Shown here piece by piece: positions 15,136 to 48,329 of a DNA stretch of 59,802 nt; the first letter of the stretch is position 1, and every line of letters begins with the position of its first letter. Source of the stretch: Enterobacteria phage JenP2; sequence record NC_028997.1; one strand, given 5' to 3'. Position numbers and translations under genes: made by a program. The notes under the pieces were generated by a model, which saw nothing but the letters and a program-made list of their open reading frames with translations, was not told the DNA's origin and did no database searches.

Positions 15136-15719
15136 TGATATTTAGCCCATTCAGTGAATCCGTGATGGACGCGATGGACAAAGATGTGGTTACTATGGTG
15201 CTCGCTGTAGCAATTTATTTCGATAGTGGTACAACTAGAGTTCATTCTGGTACTGGCACTATTGTAATAGATGGTCAAACATTTCTTGGTGTTGGTACAT
15301 TGGGTCAAGTGGGTAGTGTTACAGAAGAAAATACTACCAGCTCTAGCACAATGAGCCTTACATTAAGTGGGCTTGATATGACGCTTGTTGGTCAGACACT
15401 TAACGAAAATTGTATAGGTTCCAACGTGACAGTTTATGTTGGTGTGATGAACGAGCAAGGTCAAGTGGTAAGTGCTAACGTTCTGTTCGAAGGTTTTATA
15501 AGTGACACCGCAATGCAAGCGGGAAACACTAATGCAATATCCTATGTTGTGTCAAACGTGTTTGAAAAATGGTCGACAGGATTACCGGATCGTTATACAG
15601 ATGAAAGTCAACAACGATTACATCCAGGGGATCGCTTCTTCAGATATGTTGCACAGATGGCTGAACGTTCTATTTATTGGGGAAATAAAAAAGACGCTCC
15701 GGGGTTCCATTATGAATAA
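15135..15719 (+). CDS. minor tail protein
   Basis: 194 aa; start overlaps the upstream stop. Confidence 0.5.
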   Translation: MIFSPFSESVMDAMDKDVVTMVLAVAIYFDSGTTRVHSGTGTIVIDGQTFLGVGTLGQVGSVTEENTTSSSTMSLTLSGLDMTLVGQTLNENCIGSNVTVYVGVMNEQGQVVSANVLFEGFISDTAMQAGNTNAISYVVSNVFEKWSTGLPDRYTDESQQRLHPGDRFFRYVAQMAERSIYWGNKKDAPGFHYE

Positions 15720-16128
15720 GACACCAGGCTGGCAGACAAGATTGTTGACCACAGTTAAACAGCTCGAGGCAGTTCCTTTTGAATGGGGACAGAATGATTG
15801 TTGCATCTTTGCGGCTAAATGTATTGACGCTCAATATGGTACTGCAATTAGTCAAGATGTTATTGGTAAGTACAATAGTGAAATCAGCTGCAAACGCTTT
15901 ATGATTAGTCGAGTAAAAGACACGTCCTTACCTAAAGTGTTGGATTCCTTTTTACCAGTGCGAGTAGACCCAAGATTAGCTCAGAGGGGTGATGTTGTCA
16001 TGTTTAATACGGACAATGGATTGACAGCCGGTGTATTGTGGACTGGTTGCGTTTGGGCTATGGGCCCGAGTGGGGTCACTACATTTAAGCGTGCCGACAT
16101 AAAATTAATTGACGCATGGAGGGTTTAA
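15712..16128 (+). CDS. putative tail assembly protein (NlpC/P60-like Cys motif)
   Basis: 139 aa from the ATG at 15712 (ATGA overlap with the upstream stop); QNDCCIF motif with a downstream His; position equivalent to lambda K. Confidence 0.4.
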   Translation: MNKTPGWQTRLLTTVKQLEAVPFEWGQNDCCIFAAKCIDAQYGTAISQDVIGKYNSEISCKRFMISRVKDTSLPKVLDSFLPVRVDPRLAQRGDVVMFNTDNGLTAGVLWTGCVWAMGPSGVTTFKRADIKLIDAWRV

Positions 16129-16129
16129 T

Positions 16130-18754
16130 ATGCCACCAGCAATAATTGGAGCCGTTGTAGCTGTCGGTGCCGCTGTAGCTGGAGCCATAGGTGTTATCCC
16201 AGCTACAGTGGCACTTGTTGTGACTATTGCCGCTAGTACTGCTGGCGCATTATTGACTAAACCTAAGAGCTATGACTTTGGTGCTTATACACCTCAGAGT
16301 GAACGTAAACAAGTTATCCGAGCTGCCGCTGCTGCAAGAACAGTTATATATGGGACTACAGTATCTAGTGGTGTTCTTGTATTCGCTGAGGAAGAACCGG
16401 GAGAACAGGACGAAAACGAAAGGTTGACTCTTGTTGTCGCGTTAGCTGGCCATGAACTGACTGAAGTAGGGCAAGTGTGGTTAGGTGACGACACAATTGA
16501 AAGCTACGCTGAAAATGCAGAATACGAAGTCTTTAATAATCCGACAAAAGTAAGCCAGAAGATGTTGAAATCATGTCCTTCATGGAAAGAGGATATGATT
16601 GGTAAAGGTATTTGCTGGTTAAGATTAAGTTTAAAATTTGATTCTGAAAAATTCCCGTCTGGTTTACCTAACGTTAAATGCCTTAAGAAAGGTCGAAAGG
16701 TATTGGATCCAAGATCTAAACAGATGGTGTTCACAGCTAATGCCGCTCTTATTATCTTAGATTACCTTCGTGTGTATTTAAAAAGAACGGATGATCAAAT
16801 CTACTGGGACCAGTTTATTGAAGCTGCAAACATTTGCGACGAATATGTTGAAAACGTAGATGGATCATCTGAGCACCGATACACCATTAACGGAGAATTT
16901 GATATAGATGAAGCTCCAGCTAAAGTCTTGGAAGACATGTTGGATGCTTGTGGCGGAGAATTGACCTACATTGGTGGTAAGCACGGGATCCTAGTTGGTG
17001 CATATTATGGCCCTCCACAACACGTATTAGACGAGAGTTGTATTGCAGGTGATATTAAAATTACACCTGAAACTTCGTTCAAGGATCGCACAAACACTAT
17101 CACTGGTAAATATGTAGATCCACAACAGAATTATCAAGAAGCTGACTTCCCATCTGTTAGCATCAAAGAATACGTTGATGCAGATGGGCAAGAAATTACG
17201 GAAGATTACGACTATCGCTTTGTCACAAGTCCATACCAAGCTCAACGCCTTGCAACATTGACGCTACGTCGTAAACGTATCGGTCGCTCTATGGAAATAC
17301 CATGTAACATGAAAGGTTACAAGTTCCGTCCCGGAATGTACATATACGTTACAATTAAACAACTCGGAATTGAAAGAGTTGAAATGCGTGTCACTCAATG
17401 GCAGTTTGATCCACAAGGTGGCGTAACTCTGACCTTGCGACAAGACTTCGCGGAGTTGTGGGATGACGCAGTTGGTAAACCTGTAGAAAGACCAGACCTA
17501 GTTGAATTACCTACTGGTGGAGCTGTTCAACCGCAAAATCTGAAATACGAAGTTCTTGAAATTAGCGACGTAGTGCAGGGTGTTTTATCGTGGCAGAATA
17601 TTGGCGCTGTAGCCTATAACAGCGTGGTTATTAAGAAAGGTGGTGTAACCGTATTGACAGTGCAAGTACCGGGGCAGAGCACGCGGCTTACTGGGCTTAT
17701 TCGGGGTACTTATACCGCACATGTGAAAGCTACTGCTTACACTGGTGCAACTAGCCCCGAAGGTTACTTGGAATTTAATATTCAAGCACCTTCGACCCCA
17801 TCTTCAGTAGAAGTAACTCAAGGTTATTTTTCAATAACTTTAAAACCAAAATCTGCAGATTTAGCTAATGTTAGTACACAGTATGATTTCTGGACTTCTG
17901 GTGAAACGAGACTTCCATCTGCTGCTGTAGATATTGTAGAAAAACAAGCGACTCGTGCTGGTATGGGTACAACATGGACTTCGGAAGGGTTGCTCAATGA
18001 CCACACTTATTACTGGTACGTGCGAGCAATTAATGCGTTCGGTTCATCAGCATTCATAGAAGTAGCTGCAAAATGCTTTACTGATGCTGCTGGTCTTATT
18101 CCTCAGATTGACAAGGAATTCAAAGGTACAAACACTTATAAAGAGTTAATGTCTGAGATTGAAGGTGTCAGTGACGGGATTACATCTGTCAACGAAAGCC
18201 TTGTAGACGCGGAAAAGAGACTCAGCCAGAGTATTAATAGCGTCCAGGAGACTGTGGATGGTGTTAGTGCAACTGTGCAGGAAGTCAGTAAAGCTGTCGT
18301 AGATTTAGAAGGTAACGTTAACGCCCAATGGGGTGCTAAAGTTCAAGTTGACAACAAAGGTCAGAAATATGTTGCTGGTATCCAATTAGGTTTAGAGGGT
18401 TCCGGTGGAGCTGTTCAATCTTACTTCATGGTAAGCGCAAACAACTTTGCTGTATATAATCCCACTAACAGTACCGCTGATCTTGCATTTGCTGTCAAAA
18501 ACGGTCAGGTGTATATGAAGGCAACGTTTATTGAGAACGGTTCCATTGATAACGCTAAGATCGGTAACTATATTCAATCGAATAACTTCTCTGCTGGCTA
18601 CAGCGGATGGAGATTAAGTAAAGATGGTACATTTGAAAACTACGGAACTCCTACAAGTGAAGGTGCAATGAAGTTGACTAATAGCACGATCAGCGTAAAA
18701 GATTCCAATGGTGTACTCCGTGTACAAATAGGTCGTATAACAGGATCTTGGTAA
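16130..18754 (+). CDS. central tail fibre / host specificity protein (lambda J-like)
   Basis: GGAGGG SD before the ATG at 16130; clear resemblance to recalled lambda gpJ segments ([22 protein letters not shown] vs J [34 protein letters not shown]...[13 protein letters not shown] vs J HYVAGIGLSMED...FLVAANRIAFIDP); hydrophobic N-terminal segment. Confidence 0.8.
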   Translation: [874 protein letters not shown]

Positions 18755-18757
18755 TTT

Positions 18758-18786
18758 AAATGTGCACACATTATGTGTGCACATTT
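18758..18786. terminator. bidirectional terminator (perfect palindrome)
   Basis: AAATGTGCACACAT-T-ATGTGTGCACATTT, 14-bp arms, lying between convergent genes (J-like ends 18754 on +, minus-strand ORF ends 18789). Confidence 0.6.
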
Positions 18787-18788
18787 AT

Positions 18789-19403
18789 CTAGTCATATTT
18801 TGATGTGTTAATAACTAGAACCGTTCTTGAATAAATCTTTTTAATATCTCGTGTAATATTTCCGGAATACCACTGTCCGTTATATATTTCATTTCCAGTC
18901 GCACCGGTCATTGTCACATAAGTAGGCCTGTCATAGTCGGTACGTCTGTAATTATACACTCCAACCATAGCAGGCATTATTGCACACGGATAACCCATGT
19001 TTATTGTAAATTGCGGGTCGGAAATATTAACAAGTTGCGCATCCAAAGGCATCATCTCGCCATGATATACCATCTGACCGGATCTGTTATAAAAAGCAAC
19101 ACCATATCCAGAATGTGGTAACACCATATCAGAAAATGCGTAAACTGTTATGACACCTGGACTACCGTTAACTTGGTGCAATCTTAATGCGTTGTAGCCG
19201 TTCCTTTGTTCGTGCATAAACATCATGTTCGCCTTTGCACCACTTTTTATGAAGAAGAAACATGATTTGTTTGAAGGTATGGATGTTGTAAAAACAGAGT
19301 CCTTTGAAGTTCCCATCGTACCTTTATTAATTAAGTTCTGAGGTGTGAATTCAGGGCTCAACCACACATTTCCATTCGGTTGAGCAATAGACATCCCATA
19401 CAT
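18789..19403 (-). CDS. hypothetical protein (opposite-strand insert in tail module)
   Basis: 204 aa from the ATG at 19403 (GGGGG SD 6 nt upstream); beta-rich; shares a YG(V/F)A(F/V)YN(R/S) motif with the upstream ORF. Confidence 0.5.
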   Translation of the reverse strand: MYGMSIAQPNGNVWLSPEFTPQNLINKGTMGTSKDSVFTTSIPSNKSCFFFIKSGAKANMMFMHEQRNGYNALRLHQVNGSPGVITVYAFSDMVLPHSGYGVAFYNRSGQMVYHGEMMPLDAQLVNISDPQFTINMGYPCAIMPAMVGVYNYRRTDYDRPTYVTMTGATGNEIYNGQWYSGNITRDIKKIYSRTVLVINTSKYD

Positions 19404-19405
19404 AA

Positions 19406-19687
19406 TTACCCCCAATAAGTATAAATATAAGATCCAAGGCCCGTATATAAATTCGACCAACTAATTGTATTACCACTAATTACAACAGACGGAACTGGTA
19501 AGTCTATATAGTTATCGTTGTTAAAAGGAAATATAGACCAAACAGCCTTTAATGTCTTTCCAGGTGGTGGACTGTCGTATGTCTTAGAACCAGAAGATGT
19601 TGTGAATTTATCCAAAAAGAAGATTGGAGTTAAAATACCAGTGACATCTACACCTTTAGAATTGTATACAGCAAAACCGTATTTCAT
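19406..19687 (-). CDS. hypothetical protein (opposite-strand insert in tail module)
   Basis: 93 aa; stop lies 2 nt before the start of the downstream ORF; different frame from it. Confidence 0.5.
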   Translation of the reverse strand: MKYGFAVYNSKGVDVTGILTPIFFLDKFTTSSGSKTYDSPPPGKTLKAVWSIFPFNNDNYIDLPVPSVVISGNTISWSNLYTGLGSYIYTYWG

Positions 19688-19774
19688 TTATCACTCCAAT
19701 AATCAAATGTTCAAATCTAATACTAGAATAAAGCTATTACACATTTATATTATATACCTAATGCACATCTGAAT

Positions 19775-19803
19775 ACTTGTTATTACACCTGTTTAATTTT
19801 AAT
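19775..19803 (+). promoter_or_regulatory. candidate sigma70-type promoter for the side tail fibre operon
   Basis: TTGTTA - 17 bp - TAATAT in an AT-rich divergent intergenic region about 40 bp upstream of the 19840 start. Confidence 0.4.
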
Positions 19804-19839
19804 ATATGTATCTAGTATTCTCAATGTAAAGAGGCGAAC

Positions 19840-43068: not shown

Positions 43069-43530
43069 CTAAGCGTGGCCGTTTCTCTTAATGTATTCGT
43101 AAGCATGTGATTTAAAGATTATCCGAAAATCTTCCAGGGATATTTCACATCTCGGCGGATCTTCGGGGTGATGTTTCGCTTCATCAGCGAAAAGCATGAT
43201 AGGGTTCATATACAGGACTACGCGCCAGGGCTTTTTATTCTGACGGTACATAAGAACTGGAAACTTGTCTGCTTCCAATGCACTCTTAACACACTGCGCC
43301 CACCATGTGTTAATTGATAGCTGCTCCTGTCGTTTAACTTCTACCGCATAGAAACAGGTATTTGTGATATCGCAACCACCTACAGCACTCTGATTCTGGT
43401 TACGTTGTGCTATGGGCTTTTCTGGATAAGTCATTCCAAGAGCGGCGTAAACTTCTTCGTAGATGTCATTAAAGAATTTACAAATTTCACGCTCACCTGT
43501 CTGACCTTTAGTACGAGGATTAGCTCCCAT
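43069..43530 (-). CDS. putative PD-(D/E)xK-type nuclease
   Basis: Start set to the Met of MGANP (GGAG SD), because the longer track ORF runs through an intrinsic terminator hairpin; GGCDI ... AVEVK resembles D...(E/D)xK. Confidence 0.4.
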   Translation of the reverse strand: MGANPRTKGQTGEREICKFFNDIYEEVYAALGMTYPEKPIAQRNQNQSAVGGCDITNTCFYAVEVKRQEQLSINTWWAQCVKSALEADKFPVLMYRQNKKPWRVVLYMNPIMLFADEAKHHPEDPPRCEISLEDFRIIFKSHAYEYIKRNGHA

Positions 43531-43545
43531 GTTATAAATCTCCAT

Positions 43546-43575
43546 CCAAAAAATAGGGGGTACACAAGTACCCCC
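43546..43575 (-). terminator. rho-independent terminator (minus strand)
   Basis: GGGGGTAC-acaa-GTACCCCC stem followed on the minus strand by TATTTTTTGG. Confidence 0.5.
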
Positions 43576-43716
43576 GAAAGCGAAGCATATAATAGATAAT
43601 AACATGTCAGCGAGAGGCAGCCTTCGAAAAGGGGTAATCTACCAACCACTCTCGCAAATAATGTTAACCTGTTTACGTGTTTGATTACAATACACGAATT
43701 CGTCAGAATTCACAGG

Positions 43717-43992
43717 TCATACCGTACATTTTTGCCAATGGCCCATAGAAAATGACAGCGAAGTGCAGACAACTTCCAACCCGTCATCATCACGCACCAC
43801 GGGCAAAGCTAGGCCGCTGCGGGCGTTATGTACAGTGCGGTGTACTCTATACACAGAGTTATGCGTAAAGCGCCGCGTGTTCGCGTTTGTGCAGCGTAAT
43901 AACGCTCCGATATGTACAAGTGGAGCAGGCATAGTGAAGCCAATCATTAGATCCTTCTCTTTCTTATTAGGCTGGCGTACAGTTACATTCAT
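43717..43992 (-). CDS. hypothetical protein
   Basis: 91-aa ORF; ATGA start/stop overlap with the upstream small HTH ORF. Confidence 0.4.
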   Translation of the reverse strand: MNVTVRQPNKKEKDLMIGFTMPAPLVHIGALLRCTNANTRRFTHNSVYRVHRTVHNARSGLALPVVRDDDGLEVVCTSLSFSMGHWQKCTV

Positions 43993-44168
43993 TGTGTCGT
44001 CCCCTCATTTAAAGATTCCAGACGCTCACCTAACAAAATGAGCGATTTAATTTGATGCGGTTTCTTACCAAGATGTTCAGCAATGTGGTTATAAGTAAAA
44101 CCTTTCTCCCGCATACGATAAGCAGTAATAGCGGCATTGCGATTGCGGATATCGGTTTTCTTACTCAT
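43989..44168 (-). CDS. small helix-turn-helix DNA-binding protein (not in the ORF track, 59 aa)
   Basis: Hand translation MSKKTDIRNRNAAITAYRMREKGFTYNHIAEHLGKKPHQIKSLILLGERLESLNEGTTQ; HTH-like GFTYNHIAEHLGKKPHQIK; ATGA overlaps with both neighbours; AAGGAG upstream. Confidence 0.45.
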   Translation of the reverse strand: MSKKTDIRNRNAAITAYRMREKGFTYNHIAEHLGKKPHQIKSLILLGERLESLNEGTTQ

Positions 44169-44473
44169 GGTAAACTAATTCTCCTTAATTTAGCTTCAAT
44201 ACGATTAATTAACATCGACATACTACGATCTGCAACCATATGATGCGGTTCGTAGTAACCATATGCCCAATAGTTTACCTCTTGCCCACAATGATTACAA
44301 TTAATCTTTGACTCGCACACAGGCGAATAGTAGCCATCAATTTGATCTACGACGGTCTCTGTAAACTCAGTGTGACCACACTTTGGGCATCGTACGCACT
44401 TCATTTCCTTGTCGTAGTTTGAGCGAAAAGTATAAGGCTTCCATCCTAATACTTTATATATTTTACTAGGCAT
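44165..44473 (-). CDS. zinc-ribbon protein
   Basis: 102 aa with CxxC pairs (CVRCPKC ... CESKINCNHC). Confidence 0.5.
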   Translation of the reverse strand: MPSKIYKVLGWKPYTFRSNYDKEMKCVRCPKCGHTEFTETVVDQIDGYYSPVCESKINCNHCGQEVNYWAYGYYEPHHMVADRSMSMLINRIEAKLRRISLP

Positions 44474-44715
44474 TAGTGTAGATTCTCTTTAGGTTGTTCT
44501 TCGCTCGTCATAAGATGAGCTAATACGCTACATGTGTTTGATTTCTGCCAGGCTTTCTCAATTTCATCTAACGCGGATTCTGGTTTACATAAGCGATAGG
44601 CTTCTATGAAGGAATTCTGGGCTGCTTCAATGATTGCCAGAGACACTAACACTCTTTCGTCTATCATCGTCATCATTTCTTCACATTTATCACACATATT
44701 ATTTCTCCAACTCAA
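44473..44715 (-). CDS. hypothetical protein
   Basis: 80-aa ORF in the tightly packed minus-strand early block. Confidence 0.45.
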   Translation of the reverse strand: MSWRNNMCDKCEEMMTMIDERVLVSLAIIEAAQNSFIEAYRLCKPESALDEIEKAWQKSNTCSVLAHLMTSEEQPKENLH

Positions 44716-44920
44716 TAATGTTTAGAATAATAACAACATCAAAGGAATTTGATTCTTTAAGGTGTTGAACAATACCTTCAATCGTGTCCCTGCTAATACA
44801 CGGAGCCTTTACAAATACATGTCCAAATCCTGGAGATATCATGTGACCTTTGTGGTAACTATAGGATACGAAGAACTCCCTCGTCTTTTGTTCACAAACT
44901 ACTAATTCTTTATCTGCCAT
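44699..44920 (-). CDS. hypothetical protein
   Basis: 73-aa ORF, co-oriented and overlapping its neighbour. Confidence 0.45.
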   Translation of the reverse strand: MADKELVVCEQKTREFFVSYSYHKGHMISPGFGHVFVKAPCISRDTIEGIVQHLKESNSFDVVIILNIIELEK

Positions 44921-44935
44921 TTAAACACCTCAAAG

Positions 44936-45133
44936 TTAGAAGAATGTACCAGTAAGCACATACAGGACAGCGTCACGTAGTGTTGGTAACAAAGGCGAGC
45001 AGTTAGGAACACTGTAGAATTTACGTGATCCAACTTTAACACTGACGATTGTAATAGAACGTTTATTGCGCTCTACTGCGTAGAGACCACCACCGAGACG
45101 ACGGACTTTATACAGAGGTTGATGCTTTTGCAT
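44936..45133 (-). CDS. hypothetical protein
   Basis: 65-aa basic ORF. Confidence 0.4.
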   Translation of the reverse strand: MQKHQPLYKVRRLGGGLYAVERNKRSITIVSVKVGSRKFYSVPNCSPLLPTLRDAVLYVLTGTFF

Positions 45134-45150
45134 GTTTTAACTCCTTTCGT

Positions 45151-45429
45151 TTATTTGCTGACACGTATGGCTCTACCTGTTAAGAAGGTGTATCCACAGT
45201 GTCGCATTAAGTCACGTTCTTCTATTACACTTCGTAACTGGCGTGACAGCGTTTCATAGTAAGGACGGACTTCGTTCTTACTTATGGCTAAAGCATAGGC
45301 GAACAGTTGTTCCGAGTCAATACGATTAGACTTGATTCTTTTGATTGCCTGCTCAATTCCTGGGAATTCCTCATCCTGGTATAGAGCACCGTACACAATT
45401 TTAATAGCTGCTAGATTGTAACTGGACAT
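45151..45429 (-). CDS. hypothetical protein
   Basis: 92-aa ORF, first gene of the minus-strand unit next to a divergent intergenic region. Confidence 0.45.
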   Translation of the reverse strand: MSSYNLAAIKIVYGALYQDEEFPGIEQAIKRIKSNRIDSEQLFAYALAISKNEVRPYYETLSRQLRSVIEERDLMRHCGYTFLTGRAIRVSK

Positions 45430-45464
45430 TTGACCCTCGGACGTAAAATAATTCTTGATACCTA

Positions 45465-45492
45465 TTGCATTCCTAAGGAAATGCTCTATAGT
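45465..45492 (+). promoter_or_regulatory. candidate sigma70-type promoter
   Basis: TTGCAT - 16 bp - TATAGT about 35 nt upstream of the 45528 start, which has a GGAGGA SD. Confidence 0.45.
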
Positions 45493-45527
45493 ATGTATTA
45501 TACAGTTTGTAAGCGGAGGAACACAAA

Positions 45528-45752
45528 ATGACTCACCAAGATCTTATAAAAAGAAACATCAGAACTGCAATGAACAAGTCGGAAGACTTCTTATTTGAGC
45601 AAGGTAGTTCAATAATAAAATACGAATATATGGGATCCTCAACTGTGGTTACATTTGAGAAAGATGAGTATCACGTTGGAGATTTTTCAACACCAGATTA
45701 TGATGTGATGTTTGAATATGTCGTATGTGAGTTTTTAAAGTTGCACGAATAA
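45528..45752 (+). CDS. hypothetical protein (single plus-strand gene inside the minus-strand block)
   Basis: 74-aa ORF with its own promoter-like sequence and terminator. Confidence 0.45.
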   Translation: MTHQDLIKRNIRTAMNKSEDFLFEQGSSIIKYEYMGSSTVVTFEKDEYHVGDFSTPDYDVMFEYVVCEFLKLHE

Positions 45753-45756
45753 TATA

Positions 45757-45785
45757 ATGGGCGCATATAGCGCCCATTTTTATAA
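45757..45785. terminator. bidirectional rho-independent terminator
   Basis: ATGGGCGC-atata-GCGCCCAT stem followed by TTTTTAT on the + strand, with a T-rich tract on the minus side; between convergent genes. Confidence 0.6.
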
Positions 45786-48329
45786 CTTAATAACCTCGTT
45801 CATTCTTTCAATGTCTACCAAATAACATTTCATTCTCGGTGGTGTAAACTCCGCACCGAAGAAACTTGAAAAGTCCATTGGCCTCATCTCAGTAAGAACT
45901 TCCATAGACATCAAACCATAGATTGTATTGTCTATGACCTGCAAGATGTTGTCATTTCTTGTTTGTTTAAAAGCCTTGAACTGGCGACACACTGTGCATA
46001 GATCACTTCGTGTGACAATAAACGCGTCCTTAAACATCGGGAACCGTTTATACACACCAGCTTTAACTTCTCCATCCAAGAACTTCTTGATGGAGTTGAG
46101 CATTATCTTCTCACGACTTGTACTATCCGTAGAACCAATCTGCCCACTGTTACGCTTCTCTAAGAAACGCTCGTTACCCTGATCAATAAAGGACTCAGCC
46201 CAACGATAATGTTCCATAGTAACAACAGGTCGTTCACTGTTATCCGCAACAGCAAGAAGAGAGGCAATACGCAATACCTTTAGCGCCTTTCTTGTGTACA
46301 TCTGACGGATAACTTCGTCTTGTACCTGCTCACCATCATTACCGCTATTCAGGAACTTCGCGACAACATTATCAAGATTATCAAATGCTTCGTGTACCTC
46401 TGCTTCCATTTCAACATAACATGGAGCGGTTCCTGACATAATACGCACAGCTTGTTTATAGATAGCTCCAATAGTGCGCAGGATTGCTTCTGGATATTCC
46501 AGAAGCATACTCTTATTCATCAACGGGCGGTTAGCTGTACATTCCCATGCAATAATACGAGACATGAAACCACTTGACATCATGCGGTCATCAACGTTCC
46601 CGTAAAATTCATCTGGTGTCGTTTCACCTGCAAAACTATACGCCTTAACCTTACCGCCAGCTGTCGTATTATCTTTACTAGAGTGCTTTGAACCGCCAGA
46701 GAAAGCATAGAAATGCCCCTTATCATAAAGGGAAAGCATTTCATCCATAATGTCTTTAGCTTTACCGACTTCCATCTTACCGTTACGGAAAAACGCACCG
46801 ACTTCAGTCTTATAGTTAATAGATGAGCCACAAGACATAACAGATGTATCCATTATGACGTCTTTGCGCAATGCAGCATCAGACGCATAGGTACTAGTAT
46901 CTAAAACACGTTCAATGCCGAATATCTGCTGCCCATCCTGACCGCCGTAATTGGATACTTGAGAAAGAATAGTTTCAATGTTAGAGCGAAACGCTTCTTT
47001 ACCAATACCAGAACGTGCAATTAATACAAAGTAGTTGTTCAGACCGCTTCGTGTGACTGTGTTCCACGCCTTACCGCACATACCACTGAATAAAGCAAGA
47101 GCAGACAGAATACTAATGTCTTTAATAGGCAACAAGCTCGCTTTATACATATTACGAGCAACTTCGCCCATAAAGCCTGGAGGCCAAGCTAGACCATCCG
47201 CCTGCTCTTCAGTGTAATTACCATCTGTGGTCAACACTTCTTCAGGTGGGCGTTCTGGTGTAGTTGCTTGACGTAGTTTTTCCGTGCGCTCTATAGCTGC
47301 ATTAACGTTATTCTGAACTATCTGCATAAGTCCCATAGATTTAACATGGGCATCATAGCGATAGTTGCGAATCATTCTATCCAGGTGGTACGGACGTTTA
47401 ATTTTTTCACCAGGCATACGACGTGAATCATCATAACGACTACTCATTGGTGAATACATGAATAGACGTCTTACCTGGAAATTGTACTTACTCTTAAAGC
47501 AAAGAAAGTCAATTAATGCAAATTCTGCTTCAGACTGAGAAGGGAAACAACGTTCGCCGATAGAAGTATCAACTTCTTCAGCTCTCCAACGACCTTCCCA
47601 TAGTTGTTTAAACAATGTTCCGTTTTCTTGTTCGCACAACTGGATATAAACATCCTGGTCTTCCATTGCATATGGGTCATTACTGAAATCTTCTTCAGTA
47701 AGTTCCAGCATTTGGAAGCCATCAGACTCATTAATCTCACTCATCTCAGACATAAGTTGATGAATGAGATTAGCGATATACCCTTCGCTTTCACTGCCTG
47801 GAGCACCAGACACAGTACGCGGAGTAATATCCCAGTGATCGCCTGTACAGATAATAAAACGATACTGTGAATACACTTCCACACCATCACGGCGCTTACC
47901 AGCCTGAGGGATGGAATAAATCCATGTGTGCAACCCATCACCACTTCTGGAAATTTCCGTATAGCTATGGAACGATTCAACAATCTTCTTATATCGTTCA
48001 CCAGCAACTTTCTTTTCCATTTCAGACATGGTATCTTTAATGTCCATGTCTATACAACAGAACGGGTCACTTGGAAGTAGATAGAAACCTAAACGCAAGT
48101 TATGTCCAATCTCGTTATAATAACGAATGCAGCGTTCAGCATCTTCAAAAGACATTAATAAATGTAGGTTAGACGGCTTTTTATCATTGCCGTCTTTACG
48201 AAGTGGAACCATATCCCCTAAATCATCGTCCCACACATAAGGTTGTTTTTCTGATGATGTACCTGGATGGAAACCGCAGACAGCCCACTGTTCGTATTGT
48301 TTAATTTCTTGAGGAAAAAGTTCCAGCAT
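45780..48329 (-). CDS. putative DNA primase/helicase (primase-polymerase-like N-terminus, P-loop NTPase C-terminal half)
   Basis: 849 aa; P-loop-like segment VLIARSGIGKE in the C-terminal half; large multidomain protein in the replication block; domain assignment is tentative. Confidence 0.55.
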   Translation of the reverse strand: MLELFPQEIKQYEQWAVCGFHPGTSSEKQPYVWDDDLGDMVPLRKDGNDKKPSNLHLLMSFEDAERCIRYYNEIGHNLRLGFYLLPSDPFCCIDMDIKDTMSEMEKKVAGERYKKIVESFHSYTEISRSGDGLHTWIYSIPQAGKRRDGVEVYSQYRFIICTGDHWDITPRTVSGAPGSESEGYIANLIHQLMSEMSEINESDGFQMLELTEEDFSNDPYAMEDQDVYIQLCEQENGTLFKQLWEGRWRAEEVDTSIGERCFPSQSEAEFALIDFLCFKSKYNFQVRRLFMYSPMSSRYDDSRRMPGEKIKRPYHLDRMIRNYRYDAHVKSMGLMQIVQNNVNAAIERTEKLRQATTPERPPEEVLTTDGNYTEEQADGLAWPPGFMGEVARNMYKASLLPIKDISILSALALFSGMCGKAWNTVTRSGLNNYFVLIARSGIGKEAFRSNIETILSQVSNYGGQDGQQIFGIERVLDTSTYASDAALRKDVIMDTSVMSCGSSINYKTEVGAFFRNGKMEVGKAKDIMDEMLSLYDKGHFYAFSGGSKHSSKDNTTAGGKVKAYSFAGETTPDEFYGNVDDRMMSSGFMSRIIAWECTANRPLMNKSMLLEYPEAILRTIGAIYKQAVRIMSGTAPCYVEMEAEVHEAFDNLDNVVAKFLNSGNDGEQVQDEVIRQMYTRKALKVLRIASLLAVADNSERPVVTMEHYRWAESFIDQGNERFLEKRNSGQIGSTDSTSREKIMLNSIKKFLDGEVKAGVYKRFPMFKDAFIVTRSDLCTVCRQFKAFKQTRNDNILQVIDNTIYGLMSMEVLTEMRPMDFSSFFGAEFTPPRMKCYLVDIERMNEVIKL

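What the first reader, a model, noticed from the sequence alone, without database searches (positions are those of the whole stretch)
18758..19803. Opposite-strand two-gene cassette inserted between the J-like fibre and side fibre genes
Seen in sequence: two minus-strand ORFs (18789-19403 and 19406-19687) interrupt the plus-strand tail module. They are bounded by a perfect-palindrome bidirectional terminator (18758-18786) and an AT-rich divergent promoter region (19688-19839), and share a YG(V/F)A(F/V)YN motif. Inference: a separately regulated unit such as a receptor-blocking or superinfection-exclusion factor, an alternative receptor-binding component, or a fibre chaperone; neither ORF has an obvious signal peptide.
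Basis: partly seen in the sequence, partly recalled or inferred. Interest (0 to 1): 0.5.

Follow-up and report, generated by a model that had tools for sequence, protein, structure and literature searches.

The report
Phage tail-tip receptor-binding gene pair
The two backward-facing genes are most likely this phage's swappable receptor-binding module, which clips onto the tip of the central tail fibre; this kind of locus is already known, and this is a divergent version whose receptor is undetermined.

The parts
16109..18754 (+). J-like central tail fibre (tail-tip) protein, 881 aa from the TTG start. The JenP1 annotation implies a start at the ATG near 16130.
   Evidence: Pfam Phage_Tail_Tip PF09327 (1.4e-43, aa 723-858) and Ig_J_second; phrog_31 central tail fiber J.
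18630..18754 (+). Allele-specific last ~40 aa of J (...EGAMKLTNSTISVKDSNGVLRVQIGRITGSW). This is the proposed docking element for the A/B pair. It contains hairpin-motif copy 1 (aa 860-873, nt 18686-18727).
   Evidence: J is 64-92% identical to other Nonagvirus J proteins up to about aa 850. The last block is only 16-25% identical to them. The last 120 aa of J are 51-57% identical to J of the BtuB- and FhuA-type phages. Hairpin HMM hit of 10.9 bits.
18757..18787 (.). Perfect palindrome, probably a bidirectional intrinsic terminator shared by the convergent J and A genes.
18789..19403 (-). ORF A, 204 aa: predicted receptor-binding protein (phrog_425) with two beta-sandwich domains. Hairpin-motif copies lie at aa 2-16 (nt 19356-19400) and aa 100-114 (nt 19062-19106).
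18819..18962 (-). Variable segment of A (aa 148-195), a candidate specificity determinant. It is the 'class I' version, shared with Stx phages, phage-plasmids and some T1-like contigs.
   Evidence: 10-15% identity to the BtuB-type proteins here, against 29-62% elsewhere in the protein. Identity to 933W and Cyrano is an even 56-88% along the whole length. Both classes are visible in alignment A1.
19406..19687 (-). ORF B, 93 aa: small partner or adaptor protein (phrog_557). Hairpin-motif copy at aa 3-16 (nt 19640-19681).
   Evidence: phrog_557 3e-27. 51-53% identity to bas04_0024 and bas06_025. AF2 pLDDT 85, small beta-sandwich. B always sits immediately upstream of A. Natural B-A fusion proteins exist. 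Hairpin hit of 11.7 bits.
19688..19839 (.). AT-rich non-coding spacer with promoter-like sites for the B-A operon on the minus strand (19830-19801 and 19824-19796). It holds no third gene, so there is no exclusion lipoprotein.
   Evidence: Similarity to Nonagvirus ESCO3 resumes at 19839.

Best explanation
ORFs B and A form the receptor-binding module of the central tail fibre of a JenP1/BRET-type Nonagvirus. They occupy the hypervariable 'RBP locus' just downstream of the gpJ homologue. B and A are probably transcribed leftwards from the AT-rich spacer, translated as a coupled pair in the cytoplasm, and terminated at the palindrome shared with J. All of this is predicted from sequence only. 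A is the receptor binder. Its two beta-sandwich domains resemble the solved LptD-binding RBP of phage Oekolampad. Its variable C-terminal segment (aa 148-195) probably contacts an outer-membrane beta-barrel protein and triggers irreversible adsorption (inferred). B is a small adaptor that acts with A (inferred). Docking to the J trimer probably uses a shared beta-hairpin motif (G-h-x-h-x-D/N-x-x-G-x-x-h). That motif ends J, begins B, and occurs twice in A (inferred). The nearest relatives with a known receptor depend on BtuB. This allele differs from them in two ways: a different C-terminal segment ('class I') and no companion exclusion lipoprotein. The receptor is therefore unresolved: BtuB about 0.3, another outer-membrane protein about 0.7.
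For: Position and variability. The pair lies directly after the J-like gene. Within Nonagvirus this slot varies and J length varies with it. The window has J of 881 aa plus A and B. Bas20 (LptD) has J of 925 aa plus one 321-aa RBP. Phage 9g has J of 1029 aa plus only a lipoprotein. JenK1 has J of 1042 aa plus a 96-aa secreted protein. DNA similarity to other Nonagvirus genomes is lost near 18171 and returns at 19839.

Homology. A is 41% and B 51-53% identical, full length, to bas04_0023/0024 and bas06_0024/0025. Those loci have the same convergent geometry, and both phages depend on BtuB. A and B are 25-30% identical to the FhuA-type pairs of Bas05 and Gluttony.

Literature. Alleles of this locus match the terminal receptor without exception (PMC8594841). 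They are treated as bona fide RBPs supported by AlphaFold3 models (preprint 10.64898/2026.04.02.716166). The LptD allele has been proven by cryo-EM (PMC12685063).

A and B act as a unit. They are always adjacent in the order B then A, in six phage types. Proteins of 310-325 aa fuse a B-like N-terminus (E about 1e-7) to an A-like body.

Hairpin motif. A 15-aa HMM trained only on other phages puts its top four hits, among 432 six-frame ORFs of the window, on B, the J C-terminus and A twice (8.7-11.7 bits; next best 3.0). These hairpins are the low-confidence parts of otherwise confident AF2 models.

Localisation. Neither protein has a signal peptide or a transmembrane segment, which fits a virion protein.
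Against: No experiment addresses this allele. I found no receptor data, virion proteomics or knock-outs for JenP1 or BRET.

In Stx2 phage Sp5 the homologues ORF72 (92 aa) and ORF73 (205 aa; its 933W and VT2-Sakai counterpart is 61% identical to A) were each deleted. Neither was among the nine genes essential for plaques or lysogeny on K-12 (PMC5155283). In that podovirus the pair is therefore dispensable.

The pair also occurs away from tail genes: 60 kb from J in the SSU5-like phage-plasmid Cyrano, and in a small integrated island.

The module sits on the opposite strand from the late tail operon and has its own sigma-70-like promoter sites. This also holds for the proven LptD allele, so it is weak counter-evidence.

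Sequence searches do not link A to the Oekolampad RBP. The link is by fold only, at 11% identity, and uses a predicted model.
Confidence: 0.75

Rival explanations
1. The pair is an accessory, non-essential host-range extension. It would be a second receptor binder riding on the J tip, while J itself or the lateral fibres provide the essential recognition.
For: The Sp5 homologues ORF72 and ORF73 are dispensable on K-12, whereas the J-like ORF71 is essential. The pair occurs in prophages just before the moron lom, and in elements that lack their own J.
Against: The window's J is the shortest of the Nonagvirus J proteins. It ends at the docking tail with no extra C-terminal receptor domain, unlike 9g and JenK1, which lack a separate RBP. 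In BASEL phages with the homologous locus, infection depends strictly on the receptor that matches the allele.
Confidence: 0.13
2. The pair is a superinfection-exclusion or receptor-blocking moron. It would be made early from its own promoter and would mask the receptor from inside the cell.
For: It sits on the opposite strand with its own promoter-like sites and terminator. It occurs in lysogens next to lom, and in phage-plasmids and islands outside tail modules. PHROG labels the two families 'membrane associated protein' and 'outer membrane protein'.
Against: There is no signal peptide, lipobox or transmembrane helix, while the known exclusion proteins of sister loci have clear ones. In BtuB, FhuA and LptD loci exclusion is assigned to a separate lipoprotein encoded beside the RBP (PMC12685063). 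A has the fold of a proven RBP. There is no PADLOC hit. The PHROG names trace back to unverified annotations (note).
Confidence: 0.04
3. Only A is a virion protein. B is a non-structural chaperone needed for folding or attachment of A, comparable to tail-fibre assembly proteins.
For: B is small (93 aa), translationally coupled upstream of A, has no informative fold match and is always co-inherited with A.
Against: Natural B-A fusions argue that B-like domains stay attached to A-like domains. B carries the same hairpin motif as the J terminus and A, which suggests a structural joint.
Confidence: 0.08

Closest known systems
BtuB-associated RBP locus of Drexlerviridae (BASEL Bas04 FritzSarasin bas04_0023-0025; Bas06 KarlJaspers bas06_0024-0026; tonijn gp16-18)
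   Same: The geometry is the same: J, then a bidirectional terminator, then a 204-aa gene and a ~92-aa gene on the opposite strand. A is 41% and B 51-53% identical over the full length. The J tail (...ISVxDxNGVLRVxIGRITGxW) is the same, and so are the hairpin motifs.
   Different: Those loci carry a third gene, a lipoprotein (MKKLIAV...LTGC), which this window lacks. Residues 148-195 of A are only 10-15% identical. BtuB dependence is shown for those phages but not for this allele.
RBP of phage Oekolampad (bas18_0025, PDB 9RPT/9RPW/9RQI) with its SE lipoprotein; Rtp44/Rtp45 of phage Rtp
   Different: It is a single 321-aa chain with no B partner. There is no detectable sequence similarity. The J tail differs (...GGGRVKVGTW). 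It binds LptD and is paired with a lipoprotein.
FhuA-type pair plus Cor (Bas05 bas05_0023-0025; Dhillonvirus Gluttony gp57/gp58/cor; Webervirus Alina gp23/gp24)
   Same: Homologous B-like and A-like proteins (25-30% identity), the same PHROG families, the same J tail and the same hairpins.
   Different: The pair is co-directional with J. It is followed by a Cor lipoprotein on the opposite strand. The C-terminal half of A is divergent.
Stx-phage ORF72/ORF73 of Sp5 (ECs1234/ECs1235), equivalent to 933W L0126/L0127
   Same: These are the closest characterised homologues of the class I allele (A 61%, B 58%). They lie directly after a protein with a J-type C-terminal domain (ORF71) that ends in the same hairpin, and there is no lipoprotein.
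   Different: The virion is a podovirus and the phage is temperate. The pair is co-directional with the tail genes and is followed by lom. It is experimentally dispensable on K-12.
T5 pb5 (oad) and Llp
   Same: It works the same way: a separate monomeric RBP attached non-covalently to the tip of a trimeric central fibre and recognising an outer-membrane beta-barrel (PMC9586334, as cited).
   Different: It is not homologous, is much larger, sits at a different locus, and is paired with an exclusion lipoprotein.

Membership tests
'Bona fide RBP locus' downstream of gpJ in small siphoviruses (Maffei 2021) | Encoded immediately downstream of the gpJ homologue | tested here: met
   J ends at 18754 and A ends at 18789 on the opposite strand.
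'Bona fide RBP locus' downstream of gpJ in small siphoviruses (Maffei 2021) | Hypervariable slot among otherwise syntenic relatives, with alleles shared across genera | tested here: met
   Four different contents of the slot occur within Nonagvirus. The same allele family occurs in Drexlerviridae, Dhillonvirus, Webervirus and Stx phages.
'Bona fide RBP locus' downstream of gpJ in small siphoviruses (Maffei 2021) | The allele matches the experimentally determined terminal receptor | not testable with these tools
   No receptor data for JenP1, BRET or this allele were found in the papers searched.
'Bona fide RBP locus' downstream of gpJ in small siphoviruses (Maffei 2021) | A cognate superinfection-exclusion lipoprotein is encoded alongside (frequent, not universal) | tested here: not met
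   The 152-bp spacer holds no ORF. tblastn with six exclusion lipoproteins and one signal-peptide protein (bas10_0024) against the whole window gave nothing below E 0.4. Class I alleles elsewhere also lack one.
BtuB-specific RBP family of Drexlerviridae and related taxa (2026 preprint criterion) | [quoted passage not shown] | tested here: met
   41% identity over 204-205 aligned positions to bas04_0023 and bas06_0024.
BtuB-specific RBP family of Drexlerviridae and related taxa (2026 preprint criterion) | Conserved C-terminal (putative receptor-contacting) segment and the BtuB-type lipoprotein partner | tested here: not met
   aa 148-195 are 10-15% identical. There is no lipoprotein. Class II proteins (Bas04, Bas06, tonijn, P0014) all have the lipoprotein.
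BtuB-specific RBP family of Drexlerviridae and related taxa (2026 preprint criterion) | Infection depends on BtuB | not testable with these tools
   This needs plating on a btuB knock-out or a genome-wide screen.
PHROG 425 / PHROG 557 | Full-length profile match | tested here: met
   A: 5.6e-69 over 1-204. B: 3e-27 over 1-93. The PHROG names ('membrane associated', 'outer membrane protein') are not supported by the sequences.
Oekolampad-type RBP fold (PDB 9RPT chain C) | Structural superposition clearly above background | tested here: met
Oekolampad-type RBP fold (PDB 9RPT chain C) | Detectable sequence homology | tested here: not met
   The profile search of PDB found nothing. There was no blastp hit to bas18_0025.
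Superinfection-exclusion lipoproteins (Cor, Llp, Rtp45) | N-terminal signal peptide with a lipobox cysteine; small periplasmic protein | tested here: not met
   A and B have no hydrophobic N-terminus: maximum KD(10) in the first 30 aa is 0.09 and 1.92, against 2.4-3.2 for the lipoproteins. Neither has a lipobox.

The most novel reading that the evidence does not exclude
The B+A pair may be a self-contained, plug-in receptor-binding module. It would dock through a shared beta-hairpin 'code' onto any J-type fibre tip that ends in the same hairpin, and could therefore work in trans. The class I version in this window is shared with Stx podophages, SSU5-like phage-plasmids and a small integrase/TerS/tape-measure island in the eut operon, and it never has an exclusion lipoprotein. 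It would then recognise a receptor other than BtuB, FhuA, LptD or YncD. It would also let satellites or co-resident elements retarget another phage's tail.
Probability: 0.15. Interest if true: 0.7.

Novelty: new member of a known kind. Interest (0 to 1): 0.3.

Why it matters
The locus type is already used to predict the receptors of small coliphages from sequence. This allele shows where that prediction breaks down. By the published identity criterion it falls in the BtuB family, yet it has a replaced C-terminal segment and no exclusion lipoprotein. Determining its receptor would test how far family-level prediction can be trusted. The four-fold hairpin motif (J end, B start, A twice) and the natural B-A fusions give a concrete, testable picture of how separate RBPs attach to J-type fibre tips. 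That is useful for engineering receptor swaps. The fold match to the Oekolampad RBP suggests that the RBP families described as unrelated share an ancestor.

Tried and rejected
- Pfam, NCBIfam and PADLOC gave no hit for either ORF.
- Sequence and profile searches of PDB found nothing for A, B, or the BtuB- and FhuA-type homologues.
- I tested whether A is a tandem duplication of a B-like module. hhalign aligns only the 14-residue hairpin (probability 6.8%), so this is not supported beyond the motif.
- I looked for a hidden exclusion lipoprotein. tblastn found none. My lipobox regex over all ORFs also returned nothing, but it may be too strict, because it did not flag any spanin either.
- I searched for receptor or proteomic data on JenP1 and BRET and found none.
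- The T1 cryo-EM paper could not resolve the distal fibre, so it says nothing about the pair.
- The RBP gene identifiers in the 2026 preprint's table use a re-annotation. They could not be mapped unambiguously to the A-type gene, so I did not rely on them.
- BamA, the reported receptor of short-tailed Stx phages (from memory: Smith et al. 2007), is an unlikely target of the pair, because the Sp5 homologues are dispensable.

Full report
WHAT IS THERE. The window is a Nonagvirus (Queuovirinae) genome. The region 18600-20000 is 97.4% identical to phage JenP1 and 96% to phage BRET. The plus-strand tail module runs through the tape measure, the distal tail proteins and a J-like central fibre (16109-18754). 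The J-like protein carries Pfam Phage_Tail_Tip at aa 723-858 and matches phrog_31. Two minus-strand ORFs follow: A (18789-19403, 204 aa) and B (19406-19687, 93 aa). The plus-strand lateral fibre starts at 19840 (Prophage tail fibre N-terminal domain).

- A perfect 15+15-nt palindrome lies at 18757-18787. It folds at about -19 kcal/mol on either strand, z about -5, and scores as terminator-like in both directions.
- A 152-bp spacer of 24-27% GC carries two 10/12 sigma-70-like sites on the minus strand. Promoter-like sites are not significantly enriched there, so this is weak evidence.
- B's stop and A's start are 2 nt apart, and a G-rich Shine-Dalgarno sequence sits inside B. Homologue alignments fix A's start at ATG 19403.

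WHAT FAMILY. Pfam, NCBIfam and PADLOC are silent. PHROGs places A in phrog_425 (5.6e-69) and B in phrog_557 (3e-27). The PHROG names 'membrane associated protein' and 'outer membrane protein' have no support in the sequences. Neither protein has a signal peptide, a lipobox or a hydrophobic stretch. tblastn finds A-type genes in 468 phage records. In every locus inspected, B lies immediately upstream of A.

The pair abuts a J-type protein in these cases:
- Warwickvirus tonijn, convergent with J.
- Dhillonvirus Gluttony, co-directional with J and followed by Cor.
- Webervirus Alina.
- BASEL phages Bas04, Bas05, Bas06 and Bas10.
- Metagenomic T1-like contigs.
- Stx phages 933W and VT2-Sakai, where it follows a 422-aa protein with the J-type C-terminal domain and precedes lom.

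THE SLOT IS THE PUBLISHED RBP LOCUS. Maffei et al. (PMC8594841) showed that allelic variants of the locus directly downstream of gpJ match the terminal receptor without exception. This held in Drexlerviridae, Dhillonvirus, Nonagvirus and Seuratvirus. A 2026 preprint confirmed it with genome-wide screens and described FhuA, BtuB, LptD and YncD families with accessory proteins. Dunbar et al. (PMC12685063) solved the LptD-type RBP of Oekolampad bound to LptDE. They also showed that the neighbouring small lipoprotein (Rtp45) is the exclusion factor.

Using the BASEL receptor table, I fetched loci of known specificity and compared proteins.
- A is 41% identical, full length, to bas04_0023 and bas06_0024, both from BtuB-dependent phages.
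- B is 51-53% identical to bas04_0024 and bas06_0025.
- Both are 25-30% identical to the FhuA-type pairs.
- The BtuB loci have the same geometry as the window: J, a bidirectional terminator, then the 204-aa and ~92-aa genes on the opposite strand.

VARIATION WITHIN NONAGVIRUS. The slot behaves like an RBP slot within the genus.

| Phage | J length | Slot content |
|---|---|---|
| Window / JenP1 / BRET | 881 aa | A (204 aa) + B (93 aa) |
| Bas20 (LptD) | 925 aa | one 321-aa RBP |
| 9g | 1029 aa | a 77-aa lipoprotein only |
| JenK1 | 1042 aa | a 96-aa secreted protein |

J is shortest where a separate two-protein module is present. The window's J is 64-92% identical to the other Nonagvirus J proteins up to about aa 850. 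The last block is only 16-25% identical to them. Over its last 120 aa the window's J is 51-57% identical to J of the BtuB- and FhuA-type phages. The J tail is therefore co-inherited with the pair. At the DNA level, similarity to other Nonagvirus genomes is lost near 18171 and returns at 19839.

THE MOTIF.
- hhalign between the B and A families aligns only this stretch.
- I built an HMM from 23 such segments taken only from other phages: B N-termini, A N-termini, A mid-segments and J C-termini of BtuB, FhuA and YncD loci.
- I scanned all 432 six-frame ORFs of at least 50 aa in the window.
- The top four hits are B aa 3-16 (11.7 bits), J aa 860-873 (10.9), A aa 2-16 (9.6) and A aa 100-114 (8.7). 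The fifth hit scores 3.0.

The motif marks the end of J, the start of B, and the start of each domain of A, and nothing else in the phage. These hairpins are the low-confidence parts of the monomer models. The tail-proximal part of the Oekolampad RBP is disordered in the complex. I infer that the hairpins form the joint between J, B and A. This has not been shown. Natural proteins of 310-325 aa combine a B-like N-terminus (E about 1e-7 to 1e-5) with an A-like body. This supports the view that B and A work as one unit.

WHAT IS DIFFERENT HERE. There are two differences from the BtuB-type loci.

First, BtuB loci (Bas04, Bas06, tonijn, contig L021) carry a third gene, a lipoprotein. FhuA loci carry Cor, and the Oekolampad (Bas18) LptD locus carries a small lipoprotein. 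The window has none, either in the spacer or elsewhere by tblastn.

Second, identity between A and the BtuB-type proteins is 29-62% along most of the chain but only 10-15% in aa 148-195. Identity to 933W (56-89%) and Cyrano (79-100%) is even along the whole length.

Two classes of this segment exist. Class II is the BtuB type, and all four loci inspected have the lipoprotein. Class I is the type found in the window, JenP1, BRET, T1-like contigs L022 and L023, Stx phages, phage-plasmids and an integrated island. None of those inspected has the lipoprotein. By the preprint's rule (over 30% identity, over 99% coverage) the window falls in the BtuB family. The replaced segment and the missing lipoprotein make a different receptor at least as likely. 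I found no published receptor for JenP1 or BRET.

COUNTER-EVIDENCE. Mondal et al. (PMC5155283) made in-frame deletions of Sp5 ORF72 (92 aa) and ORF73 (205 aa), the class I homologues. Neither is among the nine genes essential for plaques or lysogeny on K-12, whereas the J-like ORF71 is essential. In that podovirus the pair is dispensable.

The pair also sits 60 kb from J in the SSU5-like phage-plasmid Cyrano. Cyrano's J nevertheless ends in the same hairpin. The pair also occurs in a roughly 12-kb island inserted in the eut operon. These facts keep two ideas alive: an accessory role, and a role in trans. They do not favour exclusion, because the proteins cannot leave the cytoplasm by any recognisable route.

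VERDICT. The cassette is a divergent (class I) member of the known family of gpJ-downstream RBP modules. A is the likely receptor binder and B its adaptor, and both dock on an allele-specific J tail. Confidence is 0.75. The receptor is unresolved. Novelty: a new member of a known kind. Interest: 0.3.

Noticed in passing
L013:2093-14215, L014 and L015 (E. coli chromosomes; island between eutB and eutA, or next to a LysR gene): A ~12-kb integrated element carries an integrase, an AlpA-type HTH, an HNH endonuclease, a B homologue (94 aa, 64% identical to B), an A homologue (211 aa, 46%), a cyclophilin-type PPIase, a small terminase (Sf6_terminase / phrog_1482) and, in L015, a 731-aa tape measure protein. 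It has no capsid genes, no other tail genes and no J. It looks like a phage satellite that brings its own TerS, tape measure and receptor-binding pair.
   Followed up: partly
L002:5963-6861 and L017 (phage Cyrano, OV696614): In this 108-kb SSU5-like phage-plasmid the pair (83% and 76% identical to A and B) sits among Ea22/Eaa/TciA-like accessory genes, about 60 kb from its J gene (17690-22417). Cyrano's J still ends in the same hairpin (...IDVYDDNNVLRVRIGRL). The element also carries CobT- and CobS-like cobalamin genes (43137-46576).
   Followed up: partly
P0070, P0082, P0083, P0100, P0117, P0118, P0120, P0131, P0132, P0140, P0141, P0147 (one search hits, 309-325 aa): These are single-chain proteins with a B-like N-terminal ~85 aa followed by an A-like body, with conserved endings ...YDxYYxxALG. 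They are natural fusions of the two ORF types. Their genomic context was not examined.
   Followed up: partly
L003:6768-6995 (933W ST933Wp64) and L012:3768-3995 (VT2-Sakai p65): The RefSeq B homologue is annotated as 75 aa starting at an internal GTG/Val. The Sp5 paper lists the same gene as 92 aa. The annotated start cuts off the N-terminal hairpin motif, so it is probably mis-called.
   Followed up: no
window:16109-16130 and 15502-16128: The mechanical ORF list starts J at TTG 16109. JenP1 annotates the equivalent gene from the ATG 21 nt downstream (MPPAIIG...). The upstream ORF, 208 aa from a GTG start, is annotated in JenP1 as a 138-aa protein. These start sites are uncertain.
   Followed up: no
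window:23390-24103 (+): A 237-aa ORF downstream of the fibre genes has a long glycine-rich N-terminus (GGLGGGFGGEAGAAAVGGGIGG...GWGGRGGWGGG) and a cysteine-rich end (...CCCETN...GCCGC). It is annotated only as hypothetical in JenP1.
   Followed up: no
L019:8639-8872 (phage 9g gp69) and L020:8677-8967 (JenK1 gp21): In Nonagvirus relatives with a longer J and no separate RBP, the slot holds only a small lipoprotein (9g) or a Gly-rich secreted protein (JenK1). These are presumably exclusion factors for receptors bound by J itself.
   Followed up: no
L010:6099-7473 (Bas10, YncD-dependent): The YncD locus also has a B-like gene (101 aa, MPGLQAWDASGNLVVD...) and an A-sized gene (217 aa with two hairpin motifs), plus a signal-peptide protein. 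blastp sees no similarity to the window pair. The motif suggests that all of the families described as unrelated share one architecture.
   Followed up: partly
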